A stretch of 64,000 bases of DNA. Origin: Ruditapes philippinarum (lineage: Eukaryota). Positions 27,001 to 63,000 of this stretch are shown one piece after another. Positions within the stretch are counted from its first letter, which is position 1. Each line of letters begins with the position of its first letter. Where the stretch lies: the NCBI RefSeq assembly GCF_026571515.1, contig NW_026858371.1:186001-250000 (forward strand), given 5' to 3'. Position numbers: made by a program.

Positions 27001-30000
27001 TTCCTCAATCCAATCATGTTGTTGTTATTGTTGGCGTTTGGTTTCACGTTCCACCAACACATTGTAGGTCCTAGCTCTCGAGCTTTACTTGTAGATGTAG
27101 ACCTCAGGTGTCCGGCTGTGCATTTTTTCAGTCACAAATGGGTAACTTAGTAGAACCGTCAATATTCCTTAATCTAGCTGGATTATCCAATTATGTATAT
27201 ATAAAATATTTGTGAGAAATAATTGTTTTTGTCATTCAATTTATACTAGAACACTTGCTGATCTTTATCAAGAGATGAAAGACATATTGAATTGTTGATA
27301 ATACATGTTGCCAATATCGAAAGATTTCCTATAGATATTTAGATGTGTATGACTGGTAAACTACATATTTTACATTGATATGAATCCTTATAACCAATCA
27401 AACAGAATGAAAATGCATAGCTGTGCTAATGAAAACTAAACGTCGTTTTACGTTTTTTTTCTTCAAAAGAAAAAGTTCATATCCACAACAATTGAAATAT
27501 TCATATGATCAGTTTTAGCTATTTCGTTAACATTGTCATGAGAGTCCAACTTATATGATAATAAATAACTTTGGCCGAACTATCTTGTTTTTGTTTTTTT
27601 TTTTAGAAATTGCCGGATATTTCGTTGATTGGCATTTTGATTGACAGAGGTATCAATCAAACAGCTTTTAACTGTTCACACATATCACATAACTGACTAA
27701 CATATTCTCCATAACAGTTTGACTTCAAACTGTTTGTTGCTTTTGTTCCTTGAAGGTACTCCATTTTAGACAAAATTGACATATCGATCTTCTAGATAAA
27801 TTGCTGCTATAGACCTGTATAATTGCCACTTGGATTTCCAGCACTATGCATACCAGATATTCTATCGTTGTGTTTCCGAAGCATTTCGTTGGAGTTTCGA
27901 ACTGAAAATACAAAATCATTGTGCAAATATATTAATCTTTTAACGATCAATCTCCAACAAATATCATGAATAGAATACTATCTAAGGTCCTGACGTTTAG
28001 TATTTGTAAGATACTAGAATTACGTATGTTCCCTACATTCTAGTACCTAGAAGAAAAACAGGCATTTCAAGTGAACAGTTCTATAATTTTCACGGAAAAC
28101 ATCATAACCCATCTAACTTATACCTCCGTTAAACATTTGCAACAATAAAACATTCAACATTTTCAACCAGTCGTTCCCGTAATTATGGAACACCATCTTA
28201 ATCTTAATTACGACGAATTAAGTAACTTTTATTCTCGAATCTTTTATCATGTTGTATAGTAAAATTAATAGATCAGCTTTTACTTTTTGCTTGAAAATAA
28301 GTTAATTTTTTTACAATATCTAATGTATATGCATATAAATATAATATTTTAGATATTATTATTATTATTATTATTATCATTATTATAACTACTATTATGG
28401 GATAACGGTTTTATGATGTGTGCTTGATTTCGAAAAAGACAATTCCAGTAAACAGTATGTACCATTAATTAGTATGTATGCCCAGCTTATTTGAGCATTT
28501 GTATTTTAGTTTTTAAGAAATATATTTGTTTCCAGATTATCCTTTTTAGTTTTAAAGAAAATATCTAACTAAGAAAATACAGGTTCTCCTGCTGATGTAA
28601 GCATAATGCAAAAATTCTGTAAATAGTCTCAGTGTTTAATGTAAAAGTAAGCTGTAGAAGACATCTGTATAGGATAAAAGTCATACGGAGAATTTATAAA
28701 ATGATAAGAAGTATCCTTAAAAAAAGATAGTCGGCCGAAATAAAACTGGTTAACTTGCAAATGATAATTCTTAGTTTTCCATGCAAAGTCATAAAGAAAT
28801 GTTAGTATAGCTGGCATAACAATGTCATACTAATTTCTTGTAGGATTATTAATCTTGAAAGATTGGATATTTTAAAATGTACGTGTTTCTAAACAAACCT
28901 GTCGTGTTTCGGTAAGTGAACTCAATTTCTATTACCAACATCTACGAAGAAGTATATTTAATATCGATTTTTTAGAACGTTTCAAAATTTACATTTTTCT
29001 CGACCTATAAATGTTTGGGCTTTTAAACACTCAAACCATTTACTATGGCAATTTGTTTCAGGCTTGACTATTTTTGAACTAGAATGACTGGACTGTTATT
29101 ATAGATACCATCAAAAGATATTCCGATGTGTGTCAAATTAAACACGCTAATAATTTGGACAAAAAAAATAAGATATCAAATTTTGTTTGATCATTCATTA
29201 AGACGAAACTAGCATGTTTTATTAAACCAATGTTTTATGTTCGTTTTGATCAATCGATCCCAATATACAAACATACTTCTCTATAACACTCAACATCGTT
29301 TTAATCGAACTGAAACTTTAACAAACAAATTTTTTAAACAGAAACACCGTTTCAAGCAGGAAATACGTACACGGAATCAGACATTGATATACAATTTAAG
29401 TATCCAGTTTCCATTGATTGCCAAGAAATACAAATATTTTGGATCTCATTCAAAACATTTAATGTATAAATAGAAATACAATACCTCTGAGAACAGTTAA
29501 GATGTTTCAATACATGATAAATAAGTTATTCGGAATACAATCAAAATAAGTAACGAAACGTTCAATTCAATGTGTTTATCAATATTTTACATTTAAACGT
29601 GAAATATAAAAGTCAAAAGTGAAGTATCTTATAATACATATTTTAACAAACGATTTCAGAAATAGATAAATAAATAAATAAAATAAAAATGAAATATGTG
29701 TGCTGTAGATGTTCGCACCACGCTCAATCGGTCATTTGGGGTGCAATATAATATATATTCTACTGTTTGTTTTTGTTTTGGGTTTTACGTCACATTGACA
29801 CAGTATAGATCATATCGCGACGTTCCAGCTTTACTGGTGGAGGAAGACCTCAGGTGCCCTTCCGTGCATTATTTCAGGCACGAACGGGCACCTGAGTAGA
29901 ACCACCGACGTTTACTGTATGGTAGCATGACCAACATGATATGAATGTCGGGCTGTCATTTATAAACGTCACAACATAGCCAGCCACTAAACAAATTATA

Positions 30001-60000: not shown

Positions 60001-63000
60001 AAAAGAGATTTCTTTGAATTCCGTCTGGTCATTCCAAAAAAAATGGACGGATTGATGATTAAAATGTTTCGTGGACGAATTTCTCAAACACTGTGGATCA
60101 AAGCGGCCGCAACTACTTATGCTAGATGGGCTCAGTTCTCAAGAGAGTTTAGCAATTATAGAATGTGCTATTGGTGAAAATAAAACCATGCTTTTACTGC
60201 CACCCATTTGTACACATGCGATACACAAGTAGATCGTACAGTGTTTTGGCCTCTTTTACCTGCCTACAATCAACAATGCTCAGACTTCTTGGTAGAGCAT
60301 CCCCTTCTTGTTGTAAATAAATAGGACATTTCCAATATTCTTTAGAAATGCTTGGCTTGGGAGAGCGTTAAGTCTGTAAATATATCACTAATGGATTCCG
60401 TACATGTGGAACCTCAATGCTATTACACCATTCCATTCTTCTGGATATAAGCGATCATCAACAATTGCTCGAGCTGATTTCTAGTGGAGACTTTCTAGTA
60501 GAAAACACTATATTCCCGAAGATTTCTTCCAGGCAATCAACAATACTGCCGAAGCCTCTAGCTGAACCACAGTCAATCACTGAAACGACTTCTATGTTTT
60601 CTGAAAATCATGCGCCAGACACAATTTTAAGAGAGGAAAATCCACAACAAGTCACAAAATCTTAACATCCCAGGCAATTTTAGAACAAAACACAGAGAAA
60701 GAAATTATAAGATTGAAAAAGAAACAGAAACTTAACGTGCAAGAAGAAAGAAAATGTTTATTTGCACATTTGTGTTCCTGTTATAAATGTTACACTGCTT
60801 GATGTTTAAACATAGCTCTTTCAAAAGCTAATCGATTTCAATGATAATTCTGATACGTTACAAGTGTATCATTGAATCTTTTCAACAAATAGATAAGCTA
60901 AAGCAGTATTAAATAGTATATATATACATGAACTGGTAATTAATAGGCTAGCACACGTTTATATAGATCGAAAGAAATATTAAAAAAAGAAAATGTCCGT
61001 AATTTCCAACTGACATGTCCGAATTTTACGAAAATAAAAAAAAATGAAAAATTGCTGGAAATGAAGATTGTTACCCCATCTTGCATGTTTTGTTAGTACG
61101 CAAAATAACACAATTTACATTCTGACCTTGAGAATTGACTTTCAATACAATATTTTCTTTTACTAATAAAGATTGATATAATTATTATACATGTTTGCTT
61201 CATTTTTGAAATGAAGTAACATTATCTGAGAACTAATCTTTGCTTTCAAATATTTTAAATCTACATATTTGATACATAGTTTTCGCCATAAACTCATAAA
61301 GTAAAAGTGTAACCGAAGTAATACTGATAAAAAAGACTAAAGGGACCACCGCGCGTGCAGTATTTGTTATTTCTGTTCCCTTGTTATCCGACAAATAATC
61401 TTTATTTTCAGTTAAACATGATATAAGTGGCAGGAAAACTCATCCCAAGTTTAGATTTCATAAGATAACATTTCAATGTTATCAAATTTATCTTCTCTGT
61501 TGACGTCACCGTAACTGTTCTTGTATATAATCACTAATATATCCCAATCTACAAAATTGTCTAACATATACTGTTATATGATCAATGAATTAACTGACTT
61601 AATATTTATCTAAAGTAATTGATTAGTAATTCAAGGTTAGAACCAACCGTGTTCCATTATGTTATATATGCATCGGTAATAACATTGCATAGTTATAATC
61701 ATAATATGCATTCACATTTTTTAAAAGAAAAAACATAACTTAAATATGCATAAAAATTGCTTTTCAATGCATGCTTACTGATGCAATAAAACGTTGTAAT
61801 GATTTTCTCGGCTCTTCTCGTCCAGAAGCAACAATGACAAATCAGACTATTTAGCTACATAATTTTTAGCTCGACTTTTCTATGAAAAGGGGAGCTATCC
61901 TACTCGCCCCGGCGTCGGCGTTGGCGTCACACCTTGGTTAAGTTTTTCGTACCACCCCACTTTATTTCAGAAGTATTACAAGTATGGCTTTGAAACTTAC
62001 CATACTTGTTCACCATCATAACCTCCATCTACAGACAAGAGTACATAACTCTGTCAAGGTTTTTGACAGAATTATGGCCCTTTTTTGACTTAGAAAGTGT
62101 ATTGAGCTTGGTTAAGTTTTTTGTACCACCTCACTTTATTTCAAAACCATTGAGGTATTGCTTTGAAACTGACCATACTTGTTTACCATCACGACCTTCA
62201 TCAACAGACAAGAGGACATAACTCTGTCAAGGTTTTTGACAGAATTATGCCCCTTTTTGACTTAGAAAATACATTGAATATGGGTAAAATCCACTTATTG
62301 CCTTAACCCTTTGAGATATTGCTTTGAAACTTTTAATGCTATTTCACATCATTACCCCCATCTGTACGCAAGAGAAGGTAACTCTGTCAAGGATTTGTTT
62401 TAAAAATTAAGGCCTTTTATCGACTTAGAATCTTGGTTAAGTTTTTAGTACCAGTCCACTTTTTGACTGAACTGTTTGAGATATTAATTTGAAAGTTGGA
62501 ATACTTGTTTACAATCATGATTCCCAAACATGTCCAGGAGAAGGTAATTCTGTCAAAGATTTTATTTGAATTATGGCCCTTAACTGTCAATGTTTTGTAT
62601 TATAGGCAAGCACTAAAAAACTTAAAAAATCTAAAAAAATTCATTCCTATCCACTGAACCTGCAGTGTTCAAGGGTATCACACAATTCAGTAAAATAATT
62701 CTTCACTAAATATCTTAATGCTCATGGCCATTGTTCACTTTAAAAATACAGAGATTCTTGTATTGCCTTTTACTGCAAAAACTTTTTTTATTGGCAAGCA
62801 ATAAAAAAGTCGAGCGCGCTGTCTTACGGACAGCTCTTGTTTTTGTTTGTTTGGATTTTTACGGCACGTCAACACACAACTGGCCATATCGTGCCGAATG
62901 CTATTAAAGGCTTAAAATGTTATGTAAAACTTTGTTAATGACAATAGAAATGAACCAATTAGATCCTAGAATACAAGTTTATCTCTTTCAAATAATCAAT

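What the first reader, a model, noticed from the sequence alone, without database searches (positions are those of the whole stretch)
27807..61540. Seven co-oriented copies of coding exon 1 upstream of a single exon 2: possible variable-first-exon locus or exon graveyard
Seen: exon-1 paralogues start at 31245, 37772, 41297, 45058, 49333, 53151 and 61540, all on the minus strand. I find only one exon 2, downstream of all of them. Copies D, F and G keep a GT donor in the same position and C has GC. Established: clustered protocadherin and UGT1A loci use many first exons spliced to shared constant exons. Inference: this could be an incipient or decayed version of that design. However, all six extra copies are disrupted in this haplotype, so any spliced products would be non-coding, NMD substrates or short peptides.
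Basis: partly seen in the sequence, partly recalled or inferred. Interest (0 to 1): 0.7.

Follow-up and report, generated by a model that had tools for sequence, protein, structure and literature searches.

The report
Dead first-exon copies beside a clam gene
A small, conserved two-exon clam gene lies downstream of six broken copies of its first exon; these are decaying leftovers of partial tandem duplication, which is ordinary genome debris and not a working multi-first-exon gene.

Summary
The window is AT-rich bivalve DNA, not human. It contains exactly seven co-oriented minus-strand copies of one coding exon and only one copy of the next exon.

Copy A (31245-30966) is intact. Spliced to 27901-27807 it gives a 124-aa single-pass membrane protein, matching a 124-aa Mercenaria reference protein in length and sequence.

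Copies B-G all carry stops or frameshifts, and G has lost its ATG. B-F form a contiguous head-to-tail array at 36765-56150, with a period of about 3.75 kb and about five units.

- All five units share two +4-nt frameshifting insertions that are absent from A, from G and from the orthologous proteins. The array therefore amplified a copy that was already dead.
- Within the array the exon is no better conserved than its flanks, and dN/dS is 0.83-6.25.
- A power test argues against undetected exon-2 remnants. Exon-2-sized pieces of exon 1 recover the copies in 196 of 228 trials, whereas exon 2 recovers nothing.

Verdict: this is an exon graveyard from partial tandem duplication. The topology resembles protocadherin/UGT1A clusters, but nothing supports a variable-first-exon function. 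No RNA data or related genomes could be examined. Interest is low.

The parts
30966..31245 (-). Gene A, first coding exon. It has 280 nt: 93 codons plus 1 base, so the intron is phase 1. It encodes an acidic N-terminal part, the basic stretch ERKRIAR and one transmembrane segment.
   Evidence: Open from the ATG to G|GTAGGT. 100% identical to P0001 and 89% to the Mercenaria reference protein P0003. Short tip branch on the tree (0.054).
27902..30965 (-). Intron of gene A (3064 nt), GT...AG.
   Evidence: Donor GT at 30965-30964 and acceptor AG at 27903-27902, read directly from the sequence. The intron position fits the spliced proteins P0003, P0006, P0017, P0018, P0032, P0036, P0040 and P0044. 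Unspliced ORF calls of relatives run on with G-K/G-R at the same point.
27807..27901 (-). Gene A, second and last coding exon: 31 codons (VRNSNEML... tail with an N-x-T sequon) and the TAG stop. It is the only copy in the window.
   Evidence: tblastn E = 6e-19 with its own peptide and 6e-14 with the Mercenaria tail (81% identity). Family tail profile E = 1.4e-13, next best 3. The database search with this exon finds only P0003.
31246..31397 (-). Proximal upstream sequence of exon 1 (5'UTR and/or core promoter), shared by A and B-F. It contains a CCAAT-like motif about 75 nt before the ATG; the motif name is from recall and was not tested.
   Evidence: The nhmmer match of the unit profile to A runs 31397-30963. 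The 85 nt before the ATG are 68-80% identical between A and B-F but only 53% between A and G. Alignment.
37564..37772 (-). Pseudo-exon B. It has the ATG, two in-frame stops, a 9-nt deletion, a +3 and a +4 insertion, and a 3' end that is lost or diverged. It lies in a truncated last unit.
41051..41297 (-). Pseudo-exon C. It has the ATG, 22-nt and 9-nt deletions, both shared +4 insertions and a stop. Its donor is GC.
44768..45058 (-). Pseudo-exon D. It has the ATG, an 18-nt insertion, both shared +4 insertions, stops, and a GT donor.
49090..49333 (-). Pseudo-exon E. ATG is followed directly by TAA. It has at least 5 stops and both shared +4 insertions. The donor region is deleted.
52900..53151 (-). 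Pseudo-exon F. It has the ATG, both shared +4 insertions, a 22-nt deletion, stops, and a GT donor.
   Evidence: A 50-aa ORF from another record (P0045) is 38/40 identical to its first 40 codons.
61265..61540 (-). Pseudo-exon G. It has ATA in place of ATG, a 1-nt deletion, stops, and a GT donor. It is an older copy that lacks the two B-F insertions.
   Evidence: Tree: (A,G) against (B-F) with 100/100 support, G tip 0.38.
36765..56150 (-). Head-to-tail tandem array of about five ~3.75-kb units: a partial unit without exon (56150-53552), then F, E, D, C and a truncated B. Each unit carries about 2.2-2.6 kb upstream of a pseudo-exon and only about 0.8-1.3 kb downstream of it.
   Evidence: 92% of this stretch is covered by same-strand matches more than 2.5 kb away, and the main offset is 3750. 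Long collinear matches, for example 39876-42521 with 51728-54349 (72.9%). Unit alignment.
47688..48803 (.). 164-bp satellite (6.8 copies, 95% matches) inserted in unit E, which explains its longer period. A diverged relative lies at 61860-62581, just upstream of G.

Best explanation
The locus holds one working gene (A) and a graveyard of partial duplicates of its 5' end.

Gene A has two coding exons. It encodes a 124-aa single-pass membrane protein of an uncharacterised family seen mainly in molluscs. The protein has an acidic N-terminus, then ERKRIAR, a transmembrane segment, and a short tail beginning VRNSNEML with an N-x-T sequon.

Segments carrying the proximal upstream region, the first coding exon and the start of the intron, but not exon 2, were duplicated in tandem upstream of the gene. 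This produced two old lineages: G, and the ancestor of B-F.

At birth such a copy has a promoter and a donor and lies upstream of the only acceptor, so by topology it could act as a redundant alternative first exon. That step is inferred. No sign remains that selection ever kept one.

The B-F ancestor picked up two +4-nt frameshifts. A ~3.8-kb segment around it was then amplified about five-fold, most simply by unequal crossing-over (inferred). The units have since drifted neutrally, gathering stops, deletions and a satellite insertion.

Today none of B-G can encode the transmembrane segment in frame. Any transcripts from them would be non-coding or NMD substrates.
For: Shown:
- Seven exon-1 copies and one exon 2.
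- A is intact and matches the spliced 124-aa Mercenaria protein in both exons (89% and 81%).
- 21 representative clusters relate to exon 1 at E <= 1e-3, and eight spliced members start exon 2 with VR(N/Y/Q)(S/A)N(E/K).
- Array contiguity is 92% with a period of 3.75 kb.
- Two +4 insertions are shared by B-F (B has +3 at the first site). They are absent from A and G, and the A-type proteins have no length difference at those sites.
- Among C, D and F the exon bins are 0.68-0.89 identical, against 0.60-0.91 in the non-coding bins from +300 to +1300.
- Summed differences among B-F by codon position are 172, 149 and 135, so the third position changes least.
- NG86 dN/dS is 0.83-6.25 within B-F and 0.38-0.83 for A against the copies. 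The latter is about what one constrained and one neutral branch would give (my own arithmetic gives ~0.55).
- The A tip branch is 0.054 against 0.38 for G.
- Power test: 95-nt windows of exon 1 recover the copies in 196 of 228 window-copy trials at E <= 1e-3, while exon 2 recovers none.
- The unit profile (3958 positions) finds exon 1 in A at E = 6e-63, but nothing in A's intron or exon 2.
- Each unit holds at most ~1.3 kb downstream of the donor, whereas A's exon 2 lies 3.06 kb downstream.
- An F-type ORF in another record is also short (50 aa). No relative of 89 aa or more was found (0 of 7 candidates).
Against: - No RNA data exist here, so use of the retained promoters and donors cannot be excluded.
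- The unit length (~3.75 kb) is close to the length of gene A (~3.7 kb). An original whole-gene copy whose exon 2 was later deleted is therefore not excluded.
- The power test assumes an exon-2 remnant would be as similar to A as the exon-1 remnants are. Only about the first 16 codons of exon 2 are well conserved between species, so true power is lower than 86%.
- G against B-F gives dN/dS of 0.44-0.96, with third positions somewhat more diverged (0.46 against 0.37 and 0.34). This is not significant by my chi-square on one comparison (p about 0.5), but a short early period of constraint would fit it.
- Unequal crossing-over is inferred from the head-to-tail contiguity only.
- The function of gene A is unknown: there is no Pfam family and the Atlas gives only 'hypothetical protein' clusters.
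Confidence: 0.8

Rival explanations
1. Whole-gene tandem duplicates. Each old copy (G and the B-F ancestor) once had its own exon 2, which was later deleted or decayed beyond recognition.
For: Unit length and the spacing between copies (3.5-8.4 kb) are of the order of gene A's length, ~3.7 kb. Exon 2 is short (95 nt) and only its first half is conserved across species. Indels are frequent in the array.
Against: No exon-2 match appears anywhere else by blastn, tblastn, the protein profile or the unit DNA profile. This includes the places where one is expected: about 3 kb downstream of B (around 34500) and downstream of G. Exon-2-sized pieces of exon 1 are recovered in 196 of 228 trials. The amplified unit holds at most ~1.3 kb downstream of the donor. 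The one candidate, LR*KNEML at 41940-41908, lies in a dispersed repeat that also sits upstream of A's exon 1.
Confidence: 0.1
2. A working variable-first-exon gene of the protocadherin/UGT1A type. The copies are used as alternative promoters and first exons joined to the shared exon 2, giving protein or regulatory diversity.
For: The topology fits: the copies are co-oriented, they lie upstream of a single exon 2, the proximal upstream sequence is conserved (68-80% between A and B-F), and GT is kept in D, F and G. Known clusters of this kind do contain pseudo-exons (PMC1885805, passages read).
Against: Six of seven first exons cannot be translated through the transmembrane segment. The frameshifts predate the amplification. 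There is no coding constraint and no extra conservation of exon or promoter over the flanks. GT is kept in 3 of the 4 copies whose donor position can be scored with confidence (C, D, F, G). My estimate of about 0.56 per site for neutral decay at ~25% divergence would give much the same. Only one database protein carries this exon-2 tail.
Confidence: 0.03
3. The pseudo-exons are dead as coding sequence, but their promoters and donors are still used. They would give upstream non-coding or NMD transcripts that modulate gene A through transcriptional interference or promoter competition.
For: The -100 to 0 bin before the ATG is among the better conserved bins between units (0.80-0.92). ATG is kept in B-F, and GT in D and F.
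Against: Other non-coding bins reach the same identity (0.85-0.91). ATG and GT in B-F are inherited from one ancestor, so they do not count five times. There are no expression data.
Confidence: 0.05
4. A transposable element (Helitron or Pack-type) captured the exon-1 fragment and spread it.
For: The units are full of short dispersed repeats, for example block U at 31659-31824, 41803-41863, 43280-43408, 55963-56131 and 63609-63670, and an ~0.6-kb element at 39258-39869 and 50915-51526 (85%). A satellite lies near two of the copies.
Against: The units abut head to tail with no unique spacer and are collinear over up to 2.6 kb across unit borders. No transposase-type Pfam domain was found in 55 ORFs of 72 aa or more. 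The only hit is an RNase H fragment at 63335-63604, outside the array. Element termini were not searched for.
Confidence: 0.02

Closest known systems
Unprocessed partial (5'-truncated-gene) tandem duplicates, i.e. pseudogene arrays
   Same: Only part of the parent gene is copied: upstream region, first exon and the start of the intron. The non-coding flanks and the exon-intron boundary are retained. The copies are in tandem and co-oriented, carry disabling mutations and evolve neutrally. Partial duplicates are reported as a large share of young duplicates in animals (PMC3449122, passages read).
   Different: Here a copy that was already dead was amplified again into a regular ~3.75-kb array of about five units, which resembles a macrosatellite. 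All copies also lie upstream of the parent's only second exon.
Variable-first-exon clusters (clustered protocadherins, UGT1A, GCNT2)
   Same: A tandem array of paralogous first exons upstream of shared downstream exon(s). Such clusters also hold pseudo and relic variable exons (PMC1885805, abstract and passages).
   Different: In those clusters most variable exons are intact and under selection. Here only the exon nearest to exon 2 is intact, and the others show no constraint. The first exon is small (93 codons) and there is a single short constant exon. No transcript evidence is available.
Mercenaria mercenaria LOC123561592 and Mya arenaria MAR_020605 (uncharacterised proteins)
   Same: Gene A is their orthologue or a close relative. 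The length is the same (124 aa for Mercenaria), identity is 89% and 75% in exon 1, and the tail starts alike (VRNSNEML / VRYSNEML).
   Different: Whether those genomes carry the pseudo-exon array could not be checked, because no eukaryotic genome collection was on hand.

Membership tests
Variable-first-exon cluster (Pcdh/UGT1A design) | Tandem, co-oriented paralogous first exons upstream of shared constant exon(s) | tested here: met
   Seven exon-1 copies on the minus strand and one exon 2 downstream of all of them.
Variable-first-exon cluster (Pcdh/UGT1A design) | Variable exons carry an open reading frame from their own ATG to the donor | tested here: not met
   Only A does. B-F have stops and frameshifts, and G has also lost its ATG.
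Variable-first-exon cluster (Pcdh/UGT1A design) | A 5' splice site at the end of each variable exon | tested here: inconclusive
   GT in A, D, F and G (and possibly B), GC in C, deleted in E. This retention is about what neutral decay would leave.
Variable-first-exon cluster (Pcdh/UGT1A design) | Each variable exon has its own active promoter, and transcripts join it to the constant exon | not testable with these tools
   The upstream 85-150 nt are conserved between A and B-F, but there are no RNA or CAGE data.
Variable-first-exon cluster (Pcdh/UGT1A design) | Selection (purifying or diversifying) acts on the variable exons | tested here: not met
   Within B-F, dN/dS is 0.83-6.25 and the third codon position changes least. 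The exon is no better conserved than its flanks.
Partial, unprocessed tandem duplicates / pseudogene array | Homology covers only part of the parent gene | tested here: met
   A and the units share 30963-31397 (exon 1 plus ~150 nt upstream) and nothing of A's intron or exon 2. The power control gives 196 of 228.
Partial, unprocessed tandem duplicates / pseudogene array | Genomic (not retro-copied) origin: upstream non-coding sequence and the exon-intron junction are retained | tested here: met
   The upstream 85 nt are 68-80% identical between A and B-F. The donor position is kept and is followed by unit-specific sequence.
Partial, unprocessed tandem duplicates / pseudogene array | Disabling mutations, some shared by descent | tested here: met
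   Two +4 insertions are common to B-F (B has +3 at the first). They are absent from A, from G and from the A-type proteins.
Partial, unprocessed tandem duplicates / pseudogene array | Head-to-tail units of constant period without unique spacers | tested here: met
   92% coverage of 36765-56150 by same-strand matches, with the main offset at 3750.
Molluscan LOC123561592-like small membrane protein family (gene A only) | Exon-1 domain (D-x-IE-[VI]-LS motif, basic stretch, one transmembrane segment, ID-[ED]-[ML] before the intron) and a VRNSNEML-type tail | tested here: met
   28 of 29 candidates at E <= 0.01. 21 representative clusters at E <= 1e-3. Alignment. Tail profile E = 1.4e-13. No Pfam family exists for it.
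Transposon-captured gene fragment | Element termini or target-site duplications around each copy, and copies at unlinked sites | not tested
   Termini were not searched for and the rest of the genome was not available. The contiguity of the units argues against this.

The most novel reading that the evidence does not exclude
The three old lineages (G, the B-F ancestor and A) are the remains of a once-working mollusc gene with three alternative promoter and first-exon modules feeding one constant exon. That would be an invertebrate, miniature counterpart of the vertebrate variable-first-exon design. Alternatively, the retained promoters and donors of the array may still produce upstream transcripts that tune gene A. 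The evidence does not exclude either. By topology, a promoter-plus-exon-1 duplicate placed upstream of the parent is born as an alternative first exon. The G versus B-F comparison also shows a mild, non-significant deficit of non-synonymous change (dN/dS 0.44-0.96).
Probability: 0.07. Interest if true: 0.5.

Novelty: new member of a known kind. Interest (0 to 1): 0.2.

Why it matters
The value is mainly cautionary. Gene finders and readers can mistake such arrays for alternative first exons or for a gene family.

The locus also shows plainly how variable-first-exon clusters could begin: a partial tandem duplication places a promoter and first exon upstream of the parent gene. It shows equally what happens when selection does not keep the copies.

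It also records a conserved, unnamed small membrane protein family of molluscs, with its exon structure.

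Tried and rejected
- **Exon-2 remnant at 41940-41908 (LR*KNEML; 12-nt exact match, blastn E = 1.1).** It lies about 2.8 kb downstream of D's donor and recurs at 45.8 kb and 53.7 kb, so it first looked like the remnant that would refute the finding. I rejected it for three reasons. The block matches 31644-31866, upstream of A's own exon 1. It is a dispersed repeat found twice per unit and elsewhere. It has no acceptor.
- **Exon-2-like peptides at 11456-11421 and 567-532 (tblastn E = 0.39 against the Mya tail).** Each has an AG before it and a GT after it. 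The family tail profile gives only E = 12 and E = 67, and no exon-1-like sequence lies nearby. I treat these as chance.
- **Pfam on exon 1 and on 55 ORFs of 72 aa or more.** Nothing relevant came up except an RNase H fragment.
- **Rfam at gathering thresholds.** 0 matches.
- **Bacterial-type promoter and terminator scan of 31200-31900.** It is not applicable to an animal genome and I disregarded it.
- **Five-way alignment of the region around the ATG.** It suggested a conservation peak at the promoter. Pairwise alignments of the collinear units did not bear this out.
- **Atlas search.** It returned only 'hypothetical protein' clusters and a weak lead to SLC3A2_N (0.79), which I did not pursue.
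- **Search for long relatives of the F-type peptide.** 0 of 7 candidates; the tool itself calls this weak evidence.

Not done:
- The joined exon 1 + exon 2 protein of the window was not used as a query; the searches were run exon by exon.
- No eukaryotic genome collection was on hand. Synteny with Mercenaria, Mya or other haplotypes therefore stayed unchecked.
- Supplements of the two papers were not seen and were not needed.

Full report
**What the window is.** The 64-kb window has about 30% G+C throughout and contains no N. It has no Rfam family at gathering thresholds. Among 55 ORFs of 72 aa or more, the only Pfam domain is an RNase H fragment at 63335-63604. The one recognisable gene finds its relatives in bivalves. 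A 115-aa record is 100% identical. The reference protein LOC123561592 of Mercenaria mercenaria is 89% identical and MAR_020605 of Mya arenaria is 75% identical (28 of 29 candidates at E <= 0.01). I therefore take the window to be clam DNA, most likely venerid, and not human.

**The observation.**
- blastn of the exon-1 region of copy A finds six more copies on the minus strand, with 68.8-77.3% identity and E from 8e-33 to 7e-53. The exon-2 region matches only itself.
- A DNA profile of the seven copies and a protein profile of the family find no eighth copy. In the protein search the hits on copy E are weak (E = 0.11 and 0.39).
- For exon 2, tblastn with the window's, the Mercenaria and the Mya tails and a profile of eight spliced tails each give one significant place, 27902-27810. 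The next best hits have E of 0.39 and 3.
- The donor claims hold. A, D, F and G keep GT at the aligned position, C has GC, and E has lost the site.

**Gene A.**
- Exon 1 runs from the ATG at 31245 to 30966 and ends G|GTAGGT. Exon 2 starts after TTTTCAG at 27901 and stops at TAG 27809-27807.
- Read exon by exon, the two parts give 93 and 31 residues, which is the 124 aa of the Mercenaria protein. Its tail is 81% identical to the window's.
- The family is small: 21 representative clusters at E <= 1e-3 out of 1.84 billion proteins. It has no Pfam model, and the Atlas offers only 'hypothetical protein' clusters, commonest in Mollusca.
- The alignment shows a D-x-IE-[VI]-LS motif, a basic stretch, one hydrophobic segment and ID-[ED]-[ML] just before the intron.
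- The eight spliced database members continue with VR(N/Y/Q)(S/A)N(E/K). All nine tails, counting the window's, contain an N-x-T sequon.
- From the basic stretch before the membrane segment and the sequon after it, I infer a type II orientation with a short glycosylated outer tail. This is inference, not a test.

**The extra copies are whole tandem units.**
- The stretch 36765-56150 is 92% covered by same-strand matches lying more than 2.5 kb away, and the dominant offset is 3750. Collinear matches run up to 2.6 kb, for example 39876-42521 with 51728-54349 at 72.9%.
- In the direction of the gene the array reads: a partial unit without an exon (56150-53552), then F, E, D, C and a truncated B.
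- Unit E is longer because a young 164-bp satellite sits in it (47688-48803; 6.8 copies; 95% matches).
- The two ends of the array map to nearly the same phase of the unit, about 1.0-1.3 kb downstream of a pseudo-exon's donor. Each unit therefore carries at most ~1.3 kb of intron-side sequence, whereas A's exon 2 lies 3.06 kb from its donor.
- A and G share with the units only exon 1, and in A's case also about 150 nt upstream of it (30963-31397).

**A false lead.** A 12-nt exact match to exon 2, translating as LR*KNEML at 41940-41908, lies about 2.8 kb downstream of D's donor and recurs in other units. This would have been the exon-2 remnant that refutes the finding. However, a profile of the units shows that this block matches 31644-31866, upstream of A's own exon 1 (E = 2e-15). 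blastn finds the block twice per unit and near G as well (43280-43408, 55963-56131, 63609-63670). It is a dispersed repeat and the match is a coincidence.

**Is the absence of exon 2 meaningful?**
- I cut A's exon 1 into 38 windows of 95 nt, the coding length of exon 2, and searched each with the same blastn settings. The six copies were recovered in 196 of 228 window-copy trials at E <= 1e-3.
- Exon 2 recovers nothing at E < 0.3.
- This control is fair only if an exon-2 remnant would resemble A as closely as the exon-1 remnants do. Only the first half of exon 2 is well conserved between species, so the real power is somewhat lower.
- Taken with the short downstream arm of the unit, the simplest reading is that exon 2 was never part of the amplified segment. 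For the two old copies, G and the B-F ancestor, it was either never copied or was deleted early.

**History of the copies.**
- The tree separates (A,G) from (B-F) with 100/100 support. It leaves B-F unresolved and gives A a tip of 0.054 against 0.38 for G.
- G and B-F are each closer to A (23-29% different) than to each other (36-41%). This is what a slowly evolving A and two freely drifting lineages would give.
- All of B-F carry an extra 4 nt between TTGTTT and CAGAAAATG (B has 3) and another 4 nt inside the membrane-segment codons. A and G lack both, and the A-type proteins of other species have no length change at those sites.
- The ancestor of the array was therefore already frameshifted twice before it was amplified. 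At least four of the five array copies were dead when they were made.

**No sign of constraint.**
- Between the collinear units C, D and F, substitution-only identity in the exon bins (0.68-0.89) lies within the range of the non-coding bins from +300 to +1300 (0.60-0.91). The bin just before the ATG (0.80-0.88) is not exceptional either. An apparent promoter peak in a five-way alignment did not survive this check.
- Summed over the ten pairs within B-F, differences at codon positions 1, 2 and 3 are 172, 149 and 135.
- NG86 dN/dS within B-F is 0.83-6.25.
- A against the copies gives 0.38-0.83. My arithmetic for one constrained and one neutral branch of equal length gives about 0.55, so no functional period needs to be assumed.
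- G against B-F gives 0.44-0.96 with a mild third-position excess, which is not significant.

**Other records.** A 50-aa ORF in the protein library (P0045) is 38/40 identical to the start of copy F and then ends. An F-type copy therefore exists in another record and is also short. A search for relatives of 89 aa or more found none among 7 candidates (weak evidence). An 85-aa ORF (P0034) is 66% identical to A's exon 1 and is open from its own start to the donor position. It shows that diverged extra copies occur elsewhere, but I could not place it. Only P0003 carries this exon-2 tail in the library.

**How it most likely came about.** Shown: the anatomy, the shared frameshifts, the neutral pattern, and the single exon 2. 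Inferred: partial tandem duplication put promoter-plus-exon-1 modules upstream of the parent gene. By topology such a module starts life as a redundant alternative first exon, and these were not kept. One dead module was then amplified by unequal crossing-over. Partial duplicates are reported as a large fraction of young animal duplicates (PMC3449122; passages read). Variable-first-exon clusters are known to contain pseudo and relic exons (PMC1885805; abstract listing and passages). The difference here is that the intact exon is the exception.

**Verdict.** The design resembles a variable-first-exon cluster only in its layout, and it fails the tests for open frames and for selection. It is a new example of a known kind of thing, a partial-duplicate pseudogene array, and interest is low.

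Noticed in passing
window 1-6403 and 10811-17147: A second, unrelated segmental duplication. About 6.4 kb is repeated at an offset of ~10.8 kb with 72-88% identity, and it contains an internal tandem duplication (3530-4271 with 4268-5044). Its ORFs have no Pfam family.
   Followed up: partly
window 11456-11421 (-) and 567-532 (-): Short frames VRNLTEMFKNIT and VRHKTEMFKSVT resemble the start of exon 2 of the family. Each is preceded by AG and followed some 70-80 nt later by CAG|GTA. The family tail profile scores them at noise level (E = 12 and 67) and there is no exon-1-like sequence nearby. This is probably chance.
   Followed up: partly
window 47688-48803 and 61860-62581: A 164-bp satellite with 6.8 copies at 95% matches lies inside unit E. 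A much more diverged relative (~72%) lies just upstream of pseudo-exon G. One flank is shared as well (48801-48867 with 62783-62847).
   Followed up: partly
window 31659-31824, 41803-41863, 43280-43408, 45727-45765, 53606-53703, 55963-56131, 63609-63670; perhaps 4556-4664: A dispersed repeat ('block U') with a conserved core of about 60 nt. It sits 400-620 nt upstream of several exon-1 copies, but also elsewhere in the units. Its nature is unknown.
   Followed up: partly
window 39258-39869 and 50915-51526; 46146-46348 and 51723-51525 (inverted): Segments that are more similar (85-86%) than the surrounding units (~70-75%), one pair of them in inverted orientation. They may be a short mobile element or a conversion tract inside the array.
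   Followed up: no
window 63335-63604 (-): An ORF with an RNase H domain fragment (PF00075; E = 1.1e-6; 29.4 bits against a cut-off of 25.8). It is probably a retroelement remnant upstream of G.
   Followed up: no
window 24703-24976: A 69-bp tandem repeat with 4 copies at 79% matches.
   Followed up: no
protein P0034 (library record, not in the window): An 85-aa ORF, 66% identical to A's exon 1 over 79 residues and open through the membrane segment to the donor position. It lacks the MLVITYNN start. It may be a diverged extra first-exon copy in another record. Its origin was not sought.
   Followed up: no
exon-2 tails of the family (window 27901-27810 and P0003, P0006, P0017, P0018, P0032, P0036, P0040, P0044): All nine tails carry an N-x-T sequon. 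With the basic stretch before the membrane segment, this suggests a type II orientation with a glycosylated outer tail. This is inference only.
   Followed up: partly
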